From the IMG/VR virus record IMGVR_UViG_3300045988_152564: a stretch of 55,949 bases of DNA; one strand, given 5' to 3'. A program made the position numbers and the translations under genes. Positions 6,018 to 9,082 of this stretch are shown here, one piece after another. The stretch's first letter is position 1; each line of letters begins with the position of its first letter. Under the pieces are notes generated by a model. The model searched no databases. It had not been told where the DNA came from and saw nothing but the letters and a program-made list of their open reading frames with translations. Source of the stretch: a virus. Lineage: Duplodnaviria > Heunggongvirae > Uroviricota > Caudoviricetes.

Positions 6018-6746
6018 TTATTCCTGAATGCGCTTAAACTCGATTACCCACACCCAGGGATTAGCGTTCCAGCTTTCTTCACCATAGATGGATTCCCACA
6101 GACGCTGGAACGCAACCTTGGCCATTGCGAAATCCCCCTTGGGAGTAAGGAATGTTCCCGGGTGATCAGGAAGCAAACTTCCAGCAGGCGGAACGCCCTC
6201 ATCCCTTGCATCGCATTCGCTGATATCGTTCAACCGCTCAACGCGCACGTTGGTAATTTCCAACAGGATGCGTGATGCCCATCGCGGCATGTGAATTGAT
6301 GGACGCCACCCACCATCAAACTTTTCATTCACAGTGTGAGGTTTCCAGTCGGCATCATCGGGTATCGACCATAAACCGTAATCACCAGGCTTTTGCTCAC
6401 AACTGGCCCGATAAATCCTTGCTGCGTTCTTCTCATCGCCACGACAAAGGTTGTCGTTCCAGTCCACACTGCAACCATCTTCATTGCCTAATATCGCCCA
6501 TGTTTCACGAACCCAAATTCGATCGCCGACGATACCAAAGGGGCAATTGAAAACACTGCTTACACCATCAGCCCCGTACCACTGAAAACCTGCACCAATT
6601 TCCCTAACCATCACTGGTGCTTCTGGACCAACTTCCGCAGGCTGATTTTTCATTATCCGCCGCGTCTGCGTTTTCCTTCCTTCGAGGATGGCTCGGACCA
6701 TCTCATCGTTGAAAATCATGCCGCGCTCTTTCACTTCGCCTTTCAT
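6018..6746 (-). CDS. hypothetical protein, possibly ASCH-like N-terminal domain (242 aa)
   Basis: N-terminal MIFNDEMVRAILEGRKTQTRR pattern resembles ASCH-type domains; assignment from memory only. Confidence 0.45.
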   Translation of the reverse strand: MKGEVKERGMIFNDEMVRAILEGRKTQTRRIMKNQPAEVGPEAPVMVREIGAGFQWYGADGVSSVFNCPFGIVGDRIWVRETWAILGNEDGCSVDWNDNLCRGDEKNAARIYRASCEQKPGDYGLWSIPDDADWKPHTVNEKFDGGWRPSIHMPRWASRILLEITNVRVERLNDISECDARDEGVPPAGSLLPDHPGTFLTPKGDFAMAKVAFQRLWESIYGEESWNANPWVWVIEFKRIQE

Positions 6747-6923
6747 GCATCCCCCTTACCCATGCGCGACGATGCCGCCAAAAGTGATAGAGAACAGCCA
6801 GAAATAGATCGCGGCCATAATGATTTTGAATGCCGTGTTCATATTTTCAGCTCCTGTGATTGATTGGATACATGCCGCGCCTTACGGCATGTTTTTATTT
6901 TCACTTTCTCTGTTTTAAAAATC

Positions 6924-6940
6924 AAGATTTATTAGAGCAA
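6924..6940 (-). promoter_or_regulatory. C1-operator-like 17-mer (reverse complement ATTGCTCTAATAAATCT)
   Basis: 16/17 match to the P1 C1 operator consensus ATTGCTCTAATAAATTT; lies upstream of the 6018..6746 gene string. Confidence 0.6.
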
Positions 6941-7447
6941 TTATTGTTGATGGAGAAGCGCGTTTTCATACTCCCTGACCATTAACGTAAGTACGCCGTG
7001 ACTCCTGAAAACACGCGCCACTTCAATCTTATCTTCCAGCGCGAACGCAATTTTACTTAGACCAATTTTCTTCAGGAGATCAATCTTTGCTGGACCGTCA
7101 TTTCTGTCATCGGTGGCAGGACGCATAGATAGCAAAGGCTCCGCCCCATTTGTTACGTGCTTACGCAACCAGGCTCGTGTTTTATCCCTGGCTATCTCAC
7201 AGCGCCCGGTTACAAACCAGAGGGTGTAAATGCCGGACAACTGGCGCACCATATCAATAACTGGAGTGATGGGAGCATCAGTGTCACAGGCAAGGTTAAA
7301 CTCGTTCCAGTGCTCTGTTAATGCACCTTTGCCAGGTGGTGGAAGTAAATGCAGCCTGTCTTCCGTTGCCTCTGATATCGTCCCATCAATATCTACTATG
7401 ACGATGTACGGACGTTCCTGGTGTGCGTGTTTATTGAAAATACTCAA
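6941..7447 (-). CDS. HAD-superfamily phosphatase-like protein (168 aa)
   Basis: N-terminal IVIVDIDGTIS (DxDGT motif I of HAD hydrolases). Confidence 0.6.
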   Translation of the reverse strand: MSIFNKHAHQERPYIVIVDIDGTISEATEDRLHLLPPPGKGALTEHWNEFNLACDTDAPITPVIDMVRQLSGIYTLWFVTGRCEIARDKTRAWLRKHVTNGAEPLLSMRPATDDRNDGPAKIDLLKKIGLSKIAFALEDKIEVARVFRSHGVLTLMVREYENALLHQQ

Positions 7448-7519
7448 ATGCCCTCCTCATTGGACGAAAAAAATGCTGGTGGGAGCACTCCACCAGCATT
7501 AAAAGTGACACTGTAACTA

Positions 7520-8782
7520 TCAGCGAACGTAAATAGTGCCGCCGTTCTCTTTTTCCCATGCATCGCTACGTGCATAGCAAACATCGAGAAGTCTTCTTGC
7601 CGCAGTTTCCTCTAAACCCAATTCGACAACCAACTGCTCATGACGGCGGGTAACCACATCAAACAGGGTATGCAGCCCTTTAGTTGCCAGATCATCAATG
7701 AATTCCGGTTCGAACGGCAGCTCTGCATCTGCCAACATAACCTCTTGCGCCCACTCAACTCGACGGACCAATTCCGGGCGACGGCTTTCCATCTCTTTAC
7801 AGATCAATTCATGGAAGAACTCTACCCAACCTTCCGGCTGGAACTCGCGGAAAATTGCCAACGGCTGGAAGTTTGGCATCAACCATTCGTTGATTCGGAT
7901 ATCAATGGCATAGCCCATGTCGCAGCAGAACTGATAAGCAAAGTCCAGCTTAGAAACGATATAAGGACGCTCGTTATTGAACTCTTTAGGCGATGAGATC
8001 CCATAAGCCAGGAGGCGCGGGAAGAAGGAGATTTGCCCTAACGTCGGATGAAGTTTGCTTGCAGGGAAACGGCGCTCAGTAATGCCATACATTTCCTTCT
8101 TGAGCGTCGCAAATTTGGCATTCTCATTAACCAGCGCGGTAACCTCTGCTTTTTTATTAGCAAATGCCACGCGCGCCTCGCTTGCATCTTTAATAGTTTT
8201 TTTGAGCTGTTGGTTAAGGTCGGCGACCTGCTTACGCAGTTCCTGTCGCTCGCTTTTAGCTTTGTTATAGCGTTTCTCAAGGTTAAAAGGATCAAGTTTC
8301 ATGATCTCTTTATATTGAGATTTTAGCGTTGAAATCTGTGAGTTCCGCAGTTCAACCATCGCGGTCATTTCATTGAGTTTTGTTTCCAGCTCAATGCTTA
8401 TACGTTCGGCATTATCAGCACGCTGGTTGGCGTCATGCGTCGCATCGTCGATCGCGTCCTGTTGCTGGCGTTTCAAATGTTCAATTTGCAGCTGAAGCTC
8501 TTCAATTTCTTTACCCTTCAGACCGAGATCCAACTGCATATTTTCAGCTGCATCTACCAGGGAGTTATGGCTATCAGCTTCTGCGTTATAAACATCAATA
8601 AGCTGTGCGTGAAGCATCTCCGCTGACTGAACCGCATTATCAAAAAAACGCGCTGTGAGGTCATCACAACTAACGCGGCGTTGCGCGGCCCGGATGTTCT
8701 GGATAATGGCCGGGATACCGGCATTCAGGACGTCAGGGATAGATACATTTTCGATTGATTGGTTTTGTGCTGAAGTGATCAT
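7520..8782 (-). CDS. coiled-coil protein with unknown C-terminal domain (420 aa)
   Basis: About 230 aa of heptad-like charged sequence (QLQIEHLKRQQQ...) followed by a globular C-terminus. Confidence 0.55.
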   Translation of the reverse strand: MITSAQNQSIENVSIPDVLNAGIPAIIQNIRAAQRRVSCDDLTARFFDNAVQSAEMLHAQLIDVYNAEADSHNSLVDAAENMQLDLGLKGKEIEELQLQIEHLKRQQQDAIDDATHDANQRADNAERISIELETKLNEMTAMVELRNSQISTLKSQYKEIMKLDPFNLEKRYNKAKSERQELRKQVADLNQQLKKTIKDASEARVAFANKKAEVTALVNENAKFATLKKEMYGITERRFPASKLHPTLGQISFFPRLLAYGISSPKEFNNERPYIVSKLDFAYQFCCDMGYAIDIRINEWLMPNFQPLAIFREFQPEGWVEFFHELICKEMESRRPELVRRVEWAQEVMLADAELPFEPEFIDDLATKGLHTLFDVVTRRHEQLVVELGLEETAARRLLDVCYARSDAWEKENGGTIYVR

Positions 8783-8783
8783 T

Positions 8784-9002
8784 TCAAAGTTCCGTATTAG
8801 CTTGTGCTTCGGTCATTTTTCCTAAGTATGAAGGAGGAAGGACTACGCAATTTGTATCCAGTCCCTCACCTATGGCAGCCTGTAAAATTCTGGCTAAGGT
8901 GAGTCTCTTGTTGCGATACCTGGTGATGACATGCCTGATACCGCCGGTCGGCGTAACAAAGGCGATCAGCCAGTAGTGATATTTCCGTCGGAATGGCCAC
9001 AT
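8784..9002 (-). CDS. small protein (72 aa), first gene behind the double operator
   Basis: ORF starts ~15 bp downstream of operator 9017..9033; stop abuts start of the 420-aa gene. Confidence 0.4.
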   Translation of the reverse strand: MWPFRRKYHYWLIAFVTPTGGIRHVITRYRNKRLTLARILQAAIGEGLDTNCVVLPPSYLGKMTEAQANTEL

Positions 9003-9016
9003 AGTGCACCTTGTAG

Positions 9017-9033
9017 ATTGCTCTAATAAAAAA
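9017..9033 (+). promoter_or_regulatory. C1-operator-like 17-mer ATTGCTCTAATAAAAAA
   Basis: 15/17 match to consensus; forms an inverted pair with 9066..9082. Confidence 0.6.
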
Positions 9034-9053
9034 CGTGATGAGTGTACATCACG
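9027..9053 (-). terminator. putative rho-independent terminator between the paired operators
   Basis: 6-bp arms CGTGAT/ATCACG (9034-9053); on the minus strand the hairpin is followed by a T-run. Confidence 0.4.
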
Positions 9054-9065
9054 TTTTAAAAATAT

Positions 9066-9082
9066 GGAATTATTAGAGCAAT
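9066..9082 (-). promoter_or_regulatory. C1-operator-like site, inverted partner of 9017..9033
   Basis: aattattagagcaat at 9068-9082; reverse complement ATTGCTCTAATAATT. Confidence 0.6.

What the first reader, a model, noticed from the sequence alone, without database searches (positions are those of the whole stretch)
6941..9082. Paired inverted operators flanking a hairpin, driving a small gene, a 420-aa coiled-coil protein and a HAD phosphatase
Two C1-operator-like 17-mers (9017-9033 and 9066-9082) face each other as a 13-bp inverted repeat around a smaller palindrome (CGTGAT...ATCACG) that also looks like the terminator of the upstream operon. Immediately downstream are a 72-aa ORF, a 420-aa protein with ~230 aa of coiled coil plus an unknown C-terminal domain, and a HAD-type phosphatase. 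A bipartite operator implies tight repression in the lysogen, and the coiled-coil/phosphatase pair has no obvious structural or replication role.
Basis: partly seen in the sequence, partly recalled or inferred. Interest (0 to 1): 0.55.

Follow-up and report, generated by a model that had tools for sequence, protein, structure and literature searches.

The report
Phage P1 Op86 operators, pmgR–pmgS
This is the already-annotated control region of phage P1 where two repressor-binding sites bracket a terminator hairpin ahead of the genes pmgR and pmgS; it is real and neatly built but ordinary, and the phosphatase gene next door is probably a separate add-on.

Summary
The window is a P1-type phage-plasmid. 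The two 17-mers at 9017-9033 and 9066-9082 are P1's annotated C1 operators Op86b and Op86a (OpmgRb/OpmgRa), identical to reference P1 (0/81 differences across the intergenic region). The genes are pmgR (72 aa), pmgS (420 aa) and pap (168 aa), all on the minus strand.

Details added here:
- The operator-to-operator span is exactly 66 bp in 22 of 23 distinct variants from 107 loci.
- The inner hairpin keeps pairing through compensatory changes and is followed by a U-tract on the gene strand, so it is probably the terminator of the upstream operon.
- The predicted promoter would start transcription inside the hairpin loop, so its own transcripts would escape termination.
- pmgR and pmgS form an old, tightly linked pair, conserved down to about 26-31% identity, and end at a strong terminator.
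- pap lies beyond that terminator, is missing in several relatives and has diverged more, so it is modular cargo rather than a firm operon member.
- PmgS is a long coiled coil, an unassigned middle domain and a C-terminal (HhH)2 domain.
- Pap is a stand-alone PNKP-type HAD phosphatase with no kinase domain.

The parts
9066..9082 (-). C1 operator Op86a (OpmgRa), ATTGCTCTAATAATTCC. It contains the predicted -35 hexamer TTGCTC (9076-9081) of PpmgR.
   Evidence: Annotated in AF234172. Identical to P1. Perfect 13-bp core.
9053..9058 (-). Predicted -10 hexamer TAAAAC of PpmgR, 17-bp spacer from the -35. It overlaps the base of the 5' arm of the hairpin. The inferred transcription start is about 9045-9047.
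   Evidence: Annotation. The simple sigma-70 scan did not flag it because the last base is not T. Hexamers at the same fixed positions in 7 clades read TAAAAC, TAAAGC, TTAAGC, TAAAGG or TTAAGG.
9024..9057 (-). Hairpin AAAACGUGAUG-UACACU-CAUCACGUUUU followed by UUAUU. It is the probable intrinsic terminator of the upstream pmgN-pmgQ operon, nested between the operators.
   Evidence: Arms. Fold energy -13.4 kcal/mol, z = -4.3. 95.6% of cells paired, 4 of 11 pairs changed on both sides, none invariant. Stability is kept at -12.3 to -19.1 kcal/mol in 7 clades.
9017..9033 (+). C1 operator Op86b (OpmgRb), ATTGCTCTAATAAAAAA. It lies about +13 to +29 from the inferred start. Its last four bases are the U-tract and lower stem of the hairpin on the other strand.
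   Evidence: Annotated in AF234172. Identical to P1. Perfect 13-bp core.
8784..9002 (-). pmgR, 72 aa, preceded by the Shine-Dalgarno sequence AAGGTG (9007-9012). [quoted passage not shown]
   Evidence: ORF. 0 nt differences from P1. Knockout and complementation in PMC9024508. Homologues sit upstream of every PmgS homologue examined.
7520..8782 (-). pmgS, 420 aa. Its start codon is 1 nt after the pmgR stop. Architecture: conserved N-terminus, coiled coil (41-232), unassigned beta-rich/helical middle domain (about 235-350), C-terminal (HhH)2 domain (about 355-413).
7505..7517 (-). Conserved 13-mer GTTACAGTGTCAC just after the pmgS stop codon. Function unknown.
   Evidence: Present in the window, L002, L004 and L097, and nearly so in L096 and L006, despite diverged flanks. 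Not enriched elsewhere in the window.
7465..7500 (-). Strong intrinsic terminator-like hairpin (11 bp, 6 G-C pairs) followed by U7. It ends the pmgR-pmgS unit.
   Evidence: Flagged by the scan. Fold energy -18.1 kcal/mol. Conserved with stem changes in L002 and L097.
6941..7447 (-). pap, 168 aa. A stand-alone PNKP-type HAD phosphatase (motifs DIDGT, VTGR, DDRNDGPAK, LEDK) with no kinase domain. Variable cargo.
   Evidence: Pfam PF25109, E = 3e-11. Profile hits to Pnkp1 and T4-type Pnk phosphatase domains. Absent in L004, L005, L008, L096 and L097. 26/507 nt differ from P1, against 10/1263 for pmgS.
6925..6941 (-). C1 operator Op88 (OpmgT), ATTGCTCTAATAAATCT. It starts on the last base of the pap stop codon and controls the next operon (pmgT).
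   Evidence: Annotation. Site. An Op88-like site follows pap, or pmgS where pap is missing, in relatives.

Best explanation
This is phage P1's Op86a/Op86b-PpmgR control region with the pmgR-pmgS transcription unit.

In the lysogen, the P1 repressor C1 occupies two inverted 17-bp operators. Op86a covers the -35 of the promoter. Op86b lies just downstream of the start site, about +13 to +29.

Between the operators sits an intrinsic terminator for the upstream, separately C1-controlled pmgN-ppp-pmgQ operon. Its 5' arm coincides with the promoter's -10 and start region. Transcripts arriving from upstream therefore form the hairpin and stop. Transcripts that begin at PpmgR start in the loop, lack the 5' arm and read on. 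Op86b's non-consensus AAAA tail doubles as the terminator's U-tract.

[quoted passage not shown] PmgS is a coiled-coil protein with a C-terminal (HhH)2 domain that probably binds DNA. The unit ends at a strong terminator.

pap, a PNKP-type HAD phosphatase, lies beyond that terminator. It is an exchangeable accessory gene expressed at most by read-through.

Shown here: identity with P1, the geometry, the conservation, the covariation, the protein folds and families.
Taken from the literature: the gene phenotypes.
Inferred: C1 occupancy of these two sites, the start site, termination, and DNA binding by PmgS.
For: Identity with P1:
- 97.5-99.1% identity to P1, P7 and relatives.
- AF234172 annotates OpmgRb and OpmgRa at exactly these coordinates, with the PpmgR -35 and -10.
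- 0/81 differences in the intergenic region.

Hairpin:
- -13.4 kcal/mol when complete, but only -1.7 kcal/mol for an RNA starting at 9046.

Conservation:
- 107 loci give 23 distinct cores, 22 of them exactly 66 bp. This includes clades with only 51-77% PmgS identity and two clades whose hairpin is shifted by 1 nt.
- Hairpin: 95.6% of cells paired, 4 of 11 pairs changed on both sides; all slid controls pair below 58%.
- Three clades fold much better on the gene strand than on the antisense strand.

Transcription unit:
- The terminator after pmgS is flagged and stable and conserved in L002 and L097.
- pap is absent in several relatives.
- The PmgR-PmgS pair is conserved to 26%/31% identity.

Literature:
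- pmgR is essential and complementable; pmgS and pap are dispensable.
- C1 binds 22 dispersed operators with this consensus, and Lxc is its corepressor (PMC8546580).
Against: - No transcript-end or binding data for this region could be found.
- The -10 TAAAAC lacks the usual final T, varies between clades and was not flagged by the sigma-70 scan.
- The terminator scan did not flag the hairpin. The likely reason, which is my inference, is that extending the stem through the four A-U pairs leaves only a short U run after it.
- The stem core has only 4 G-C pairs, so termination may be partial.
- In L006 and L011 the U-tract is interrupted.
- One clade (L003) folds slightly better on the antisense strand.
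- The compensatory changes come from only about 5-6 independent clades.
- The remote relative L107 has no such cassette, and L008 has a different inverted repeat.
Confidence: 0.8

Rival explanations
1. PpmgR is not a real promoter. pmgR-pmgS are expressed by leaky read-through from the upstream operon. The two operators act only as C1 roadblocks that reinforce the terminator in the lysogen.
For: The -10 is weak and variable, with no final T, and was not flagged by the scan. The terminator stem is modest. Op86b lies downstream of the hairpin, where a roadblock would sit.
Against: A TTGCTC-type -35 and a TAA-type hexamer keep a 17-bp spacing at fixed positions in all 7 clades. An essential gene behind a terminator with no promoter of its own would be poorly served. 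The P1 annotators predicted a promoter here.
Confidence: 0.15
2. pap is a full member of the operon. The hairpin after pmgS only attenuates or stabilises the mRNA.
For: Only about 25 nt separate the hairpin from the pap start, so there is no room for a separate promoter. The same layout occurs in L002. The Op88 operator begins only at the pap stop codon. A preprint groups pmgS and pap together in expression behaviour.
Against: The hairpin is -18.1 kcal/mol and is followed by U7. pap is missing in L004, L005, L008, L096 and L097 while pmgR-pmgS and the cassette remain. pap is about 6 times more diverged from P1 than pmgS.
Confidence: 0.3
3. The inner palindrome is a DNA site for a dimeric protein, or a cruciform, and not an RNA terminator. 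Its symmetric changes would then reflect co-evolution of two half-sites.
For: In three clades the palindrome is perfect, so both readings fit equally. Both operator arms change symmetrically in L002 for exactly that kind of reason.
Against: The sequence is not conserved, only the pairing is. Three clades carry G-U wobbles, which are mismatches in DNA and on the antisense strand: -13.6 against -5.8, -16.3 against -7.7, and -19.1 against -7.9 kcal/mol. A U-tract follows in most clades.
Confidence: 0.07
4. In read-through RNA the operator arms and inner stem stack into a composite duplex of about 24 bp (-26.9 kcal/mol). This would serve as an RNase III processing site separating pmgQ and pmgR messages.
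For: The composite fold is the minimum-energy structure, z = -10.5.
Against: The outer arms are already fully explained by C1 binding. Nothing tested distinguishes RNA pairing from operator symmetry. The duplex forms only if termination fails.
Confidence: 0.05

Closest known systems
Phage P1 Op86a/Op86b (OpmgRa/OpmgRb), PpmgR, pmgR, pmgS, pap, as annotated in GenBank AF234172 / NC_005856
   Same: The operators, promoter hexamers and gene order have identical coordinates. The intergenic DNA is identical, and so are the PmgR and PmgS proteins.
   Different: Pap differs at 8 residues. No terminator feature appears among the 58 features listed for the 8.7-kb stretch retrieved. That record says Op86a 'controls expression of pmgR and pmgS'.
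P1 'bivalent' C1 operators, for example the overlapping pair at window 23110-23137 (the Op72 position upstream of kilA-repL)
   Same: Two asymmetric C1 sites in inverted orientation at one promoter.
   Different: There the two 17-mers overlap by 6 bp. Here they are 32 bp apart (49 bp centre to centre), enclose a terminator hairpin, and keep a fixed 66-bp span.
Phosphatase domain of T4-type polynucleotide kinase-phosphatase (PDB 1LTQ, 5UJ0) and bacterial Pnkp1 (4XRP)
   Same: Pap matches these by profile (E = 8.6e-5 to 1e-3) with aligned HAD motifs. It passes Pfam PF25109.
   Different: Pap is the phosphatase domain alone, at 168 aa with no kinase domain. Motif IV reads E-D where T4 Pnk has D-D. 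Its substrate is unknown, and the deletion has no plaque or anti-restriction phenotype.
(HhH)2 domains: RAD51/RAD51C/RadA N-terminal domain, NusA acidic repeat, RNA polymerase alpha C-terminal domain
   Different: In PmgS the domain follows a roughly 190-residue coiled coil and an unassigned middle domain. The window's protein has no Pfam HhH hit of its own. Whether it binds DNA or a protein partner is unknown.

Membership tests
P1 C1-controlled operators Op86a/Op86b | Sequence identity with the annotated P1 sites at the equivalent position | tested here: met
   Annotated sites map to 9017-9033 and 9066-9082. 0/81 differences in the intergenic region.
P1 C1-controlled operators Op86a/Op86b | Match to the asymmetric 17-bp consensus ATTGCTCTAATAAATTT | tested here: met
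   13/13 core in both sites and 14/17 overall. The consensus is quoted in PMC8546580.
P1 C1-controlled operators Op86a/Op86b | Bound by C1 repressor | not testable with these tools
   Needs EMSA or footprinting. The name 'former Op86' in the record implies earlier binding work, but those papers were not available.
P1 C1-controlled operators Op86a/Op86b | Overlaps a functional promoter that it represses | tested here: inconclusive
   The -35 TTGCTC lies inside Op86a and the 17-bp spacer is conserved. The -10 is weak and was not flagged by the scan. No start-site data were found.
Intrinsic (Rho-independent) terminator | Stable stem-loop on the transcribed strand | tested here: met
   -13.4 kcal/mol, z = -4.3. 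-12.3 to -19.1 kcal/mol in 7 clades.
Intrinsic (Rho-independent) terminator | U-rich tract directly after the stem | tested here: met
   P1 has U6-A-UU counted from the G-C core. Five of 7 clades have 5 or more U; L006 and L011 have an interrupted tract. The simple scan did not flag it.
Intrinsic (Rho-independent) terminator | Pairing maintained by compensatory change | tested here: met
   4 of 11 pairs changed on both sides, 95.6% of cells paired, 0/500 shuffles reach the score (that shuffle result is for the whole 24-pair structure, operator arms included), and slid controls pair at 41-58%. Few independent clades contribute.
Intrinsic (Rho-independent) terminator | Actually terminates transcription | not testable with these tools
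   Needs 3' end mapping or a read-through reporter.
HAD superfamily, PNKP-type phosphatase domain (Pfam PF25109) | Profile match above the curated threshold | tested here: met
   44.1 bits against 27.6, E = 3e-11. PHROG 415, E = 5.7e-56.
HAD superfamily, PNKP-type phosphatase domain (Pfam PF25109) | Catalytic motif I DxDxT and the downstream motifs | tested here: met
   D19-I-D21-G-T23 aligns with DVDGT of 5UJ0. VTGR aligns with VSGR, DxRxD...K with DTRKD, and LEDK with IDDR, so E replaces the first D.
Bifunctional polynucleotide kinase-phosphatase (the label '3'-phosphatase, 5'-polynucleotide kinase' used in several records) | N-terminal P-loop kinase domain | tested here: not met
   Pap is 168 aa. 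It matches only residues 183-292 of T4 Pnk and 208-299 of Pnkp1, which are the phosphatase parts.
(HhH)2 domain | Fold match to solved (HhH)2 domains | tested here: met
(HhH)2 domain | Sequence-profile match (Pfam HHH_5 / HHH) | tested here: inconclusive
   The window's PmgS has no hit. Remote homologue P0043 passes the threshold at the same position (29.8 against 27), and four others give sub-threshold hits: three to HHH_5 (P0039, P0045, P0053) and one to HHH (P0064).
SMC / Rad50 / LmuB | ATPase head domains flanking the coiled coil | tested here: not met
   Only the coiled coil matches, at 15-18 bits against cut-offs of 300-1000. The model has no nucleotide-binding fold.
Phage head or structural protein (the PHROG 1660 label 'PmgS-like head morphogenesis') | Homology to a known virion protein, presence in virions, or a morphogenetic phenotype | tested here: not met
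   Sequence membership in PHROG 1660 is trivially met. No structural-protein homologue was found. PmgS is not mentioned in the main text of the paper that reports the virion proteome (0 occurrences). The pmgS deletion makes infectious phage.

The most novel reading that the evidence does not exclude
Two things not excluded by the evidence would be new.

(a) The operator-terminator-operator cassette may be a fixed-geometry device. The strictly kept 66-bp span, held even where the hairpin has moved by 1 nt, could reflect a required contact or roadblock geometry between two C1 monomers (with Lxc) clamped around a terminator. The junction would then be a repressor-dependent insulator as well as a promoter switch.

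(b) PmgR and PmgS may be an ancient two-protein module in which a DNA-binding coiled-coil (HhH)2 protein works with the essential head-completion factor, for instance at the packaged DNA end or portal. PmgS may be dispensable only under laboratory conditions.
Probability: 0.25. Interest if true: 0.4.

Novelty: already known. Interest (0 to 1): 0.18.

Why it matters

The added details are useful to people who work with P1 and P1-like phage-plasmids:
- pmgR-pmgS, not pmgR-pmgS-pap, is the conserved unit.
- The 'polynucleotide kinase' and 'head morphogenesis' labels on Pap and PmgS are not supported.
- PmgS has a probable DNA-binding end.
- The junction between two C1-controlled operons packs a terminator inside a promoter-operator pair, with a spacing that evolution has held fixed. 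That is a compact design that could be tested or reused.

Tried and rejected
Sources not available or uninformative:
- The 2004 P1 genome paper is not in the held library.
- A full-text search for Op86, Op88 and OpmgR returned only unrelated accession-like strings.
- Two P1vir RNA-seq papers give no transcript ends or operon structure for this region.
- Rfam has no family here; the single hit is a sub-threshold snoRNA match.

Protein searches that led nowhere:
- PmgR has no Pfam, NCBIfam, PADLOC or PDB sequence hit.
- The SMC, Rad50 and LmuB hits are coiled-coil noise.

Ideas rejected:
- The conserved 13-mer after pmgS shares AGTTAC with the late-promoter -22 box AAGTTACTT of LPhot. It has no -10 at the right distance and is not repeated in the window, so the late-promoter idea was dropped.
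- The 18-bp inverted repeat of L008 occurs only once in 13 kb, so it could not be shown to be an operator of another repressor.

Searches that added little:
- A viral-contig scan with the most distant homologue found nothing.
- The first viral scan returned only near-identical P1 copies.
Full report
**What the window is.** The stretch 6700-9400 matches 19 phage records at 97.5-99.1% identity over essentially its full length. These include P1, P7, SJ46 and RCS47. The 601 bases around the finding occur in 687 plasmid records, mostly from Escherichia and Salmonella. So the window is a P1-type phage-plasmid (genus Punavirus).

OpmgRb (former Op86b) maps to 9017-9033 on the plus strand. OpmgRa (former Op86a, 'controls expression of pmgR and pmgS') maps to 9066-9082 on the minus strand. 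The predicted sigma-70 promoter PpmgR has its -35 at 9076-9081 and its -10 at 9053-9058. The genes, all on the minus strand, run pmgQ, pmgR (72 aa), pmgS (420 aa), pap (168 aa). A further operator, OpmgT (Op88), sits at 6925-6941. The window's pmgQ-pmgR intergenic DNA is identical to reference P1 (0/81 differences), and PmgR and PmgS are identical in protein sequence.

**Observation check.** The outer inverted repeat is 13 nt, perfect, with 40 nt between the arms. The inner palindrome is 11 nt with a 6-nt loop. The 13-mer core occurs 14 times in the window at up to 2 mismatches, against 1.6 expected. Both sites depart from the 17-bp consensus only in positions 14-17. That consensus, and the fact that C1 binds 22 dispersed operators with Lxc as corepressor and Coi as antirepressor, are stated in PMC8546580. 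The three ORFs are as described.

**Anatomy of the control region.** The 81-nt gap between pmgQ and pmgR is almost entirely functional sequence. Reading the gene strand, the order is:
- Op86a, which contains the -35 TTGCTC;
- a 17-bp spacer;
- the -10 TAAAAC, which forms the base of the 5' arm of the hairpin;
- the loop;
- the 3' arm;
- a U-tract that is also the last four bases of Op86b;
- the rest of Op86b;
- the Shine-Dalgarno sequence AAGGTG;
- the ATG.

The full hairpin folds at -13.4 kcal/mol (z = -4.3). An RNA starting at 9046, about 7 nt after the -10, contains only the 3' arm and folds at -1.7 kcal/mol. I therefore infer that transcripts from pmgQ can terminate here while PpmgR's own transcripts cannot. 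This step is inference: no start-site or 3' end data were found. The simple scans flagged neither the promoter, whose -10 lacks a final T, nor this hairpin. My explanation for the missed hairpin is that stem extension through the A-U pairs consumes most of the U-tract.

**Comparative evidence.** I collected 107 loci that encode a PmgR homologue. They give 23 distinct operator-to-operator sequences. Twenty-two of these are exactly 66 bp and one is 67 bp. The set includes clades whose PmgS is only 51-77% identical to the window's. It also includes two clades (L006/L007 and L011) in which the hairpin sits 1 nt further along but the total span is unchanged.

Across 21 distinct sequences, the inner hairpin keeps 95.6% of cells paired. 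Four of its 11 pairs change on both sides and none is invariant. Sliding the partners drops pairing to 41-58%. Hairpin stability on the gene strand stays between -12.3 and -19.1 kcal/mol in all seven clades. In three clades the gene-strand fold is far better than the antisense fold because of G-U pairs, in three the two are equal, and in one (L003) the antisense fold is slightly better. This favours an RNA structure on the gene strand, but only about five or six independent lineages contribute.

The operator arms are nearly invariant. In the L002 clade both arms read TTGTTC, and so do that clade's other operator-like sites. This is a shifted operator consensus, not RNA covariation. More remote relatives lack the cassette. 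L107 has only 29 nt between the genes and no C1-type sites. L008 has a different 18-bp inverted repeat, which I could not show to be an operator.

**The transcription unit.** The pmgS start codon follows the pmgR stop by 1 nt. The two genes are adjacent in every relative, including L008 and L107, where the proteins are only 25-35% (PmgR) and 27-31% (PmgS) identical to the window's. PMC9603915 lists both among the 21 most conserved genes of 77 P1-like phage-plasmids.

After pmgS comes an 11-bp hairpin with six G-C pairs and seven U, at -18.1 kcal/mol. It was flagged by the scan and is conserved with stem changes in L002 and L097.

pap starts about 25 nt after this hairpin, so it has no room for a promoter of its own. 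It is absent from L004, L005, L008, L096 and L097, and an extra gene separates it from pmgS in L006. It differs from reference P1 at 26 of 507 nt, against 10 of 1263 for pmgS and 0 of 219 for pmgR. Wherever pap is present, an Op88-like operator begins at its stop codon. Where pap is absent, that operator follows pmgS directly. So pmgR-pmgS is the conserved unit and pap is exchangeable cargo reached only by read-through.

**The proteins.**
- *PmgR* has no detectable family beyond phage groups of unknown function. In-frame deletion abolishes infectious particles and yields tails plus incomplete heads. Plaque formation is restored in trans (PMC9024508).
- *Pap* passes Pfam's HAD_PNKP threshold. 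By profile it matches the phosphatase parts of Pnkp1 and T4-type polynucleotide kinase, with motifs DIDGT, VTGR, D-x-R-x-D...K and LEDK aligned. It has no kinase domain, so the label '5'-polynucleotide kinase' in several records is not justified.

**Mechanism and rivals.** The best-supported account has four parts. C1 on Op86a blocks the promoter. C1 on Op86b sits just inside the transcribed region. The hairpin insulates pmgR-pmgS from the upstream operon. The promoter's own transcripts start within the hairpin and escape.

The rivals are:
- there is no real promoter, and expression depends on leaky read-through with C1 acting as a roadblock (0.15);
- pap is a full operon member (0.3, and partly compatible with read-through);
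- the palindrome is a protein-binding DNA site (0.07);
- the composite 24-bp RNA duplex is an RNase III site (0.05).

From my own knowledge, not tested here: C1 binds as a monomer to asymmetric sites and can loop DNA between operators at the c1 locus. That would make an interaction between the two Op86 sites conceivable. The fixed 66-bp span is compatible with such an interaction, but it is also explained by the dense overlap of elements.

**Novelty and verdict.** The operators, the predicted promoter and the genes are in the public P1 annotation, so the finding is already known.

As far as I could check, the additions are:
- the fixed spacing;
- the covariation-supported terminator nested in the promoter-operator pair;
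- the delimitation of the unit by a conserved terminator, with pap as variable cargo;
- the (HhH)2 assignment for PmgS;
- the stand-alone nature of the Pap phosphatase.

I could not read the 2004 genome paper, so some of these may already be noted there. Interest is low.

Noticed in passing
window 7505-7517 (minus strand): A 13-mer, GTTACAGTGTCAC, starts 2 nt after the pmgS stop codon. It is conserved exactly or nearly so in six clades although the surrounding intergenic DNA has diverged. It is not repeated elsewhere in the window and is not a convincing late promoter.
   Followed up: partly
window 6756-6842 (minus strand): A 28-aa hydrophobic ORF (MNTAFKIIMAAIYFWLFSITFGGIVAHG) with a good ribosome-binding site lies between Op88/PpmgT and pmgT. 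It is not in the AF234172 annotation. Phage JL22 annotates a 44-aa protein there.
   Followed up: partly
window 6870-6892 (plus strand): A terminator-like hairpin with a U-tract lies on the plus strand, opposite to all neighbouring genes. It sits in the leader of the pmgT operon, just downstream of Op88. No plus-strand transcript is known here, so it might end an antisense RNA.
   Followed up: no
window 6018-6746 and leftwards: The pmgT ORF is 242 aa in the window but 309 aa, overlapping pmgU, in AF234172. The ORFs further left also differ from P1's pmgU and pmgV. PMC9603915 lists this region as highly variable.
   Followed up: no
window 6941-7447 compared with 7520-9002: There is a sharp change in divergence from reference P1 at the pmgS terminator: pap differs at 5.1% of nt, pmgS at 0.8% and pmgR at 0%. 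This suggests a recombination boundary.
   Followed up: partly
L008 5701-5753; L107 4725-4753: Remote P1-like elements keep the pmgP-pmgQ-pmgR-pmgS gene order but have no C1-type operators. L008 has an 18-bp inverted repeat (CAAAAGATACTAATTTAT) with a 17-bp spacer at the equivalent spot. L107 has only 29 nt between the genes. Both carry a CTP_transf_3 gene nearby, and L107 has a HAD_PNKP gene three genes further on.
   Followed up: partly
Annotation of public records (ON018986.2 and others): JL22 does not annotate pmgR at all. Several records call Pap '3'-phosphatase, 5'-polynucleotide kinase' although it has no kinase domain. One record labels a neighbouring gene 'RNA-directed RNA polymerase L'.
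   Followed up: no
Proteins P0002 and P0016: Two singleton PmgS-containing predicted proteins are longer and carry foreign Pfam domains. One is 480 aa with a DNA cytosine methyltransferase domain and the other is 463 aa with a metallophosphoesterase domain. They are probably gene-calling or assembly fusions with neighbouring genes.
   Followed up: no
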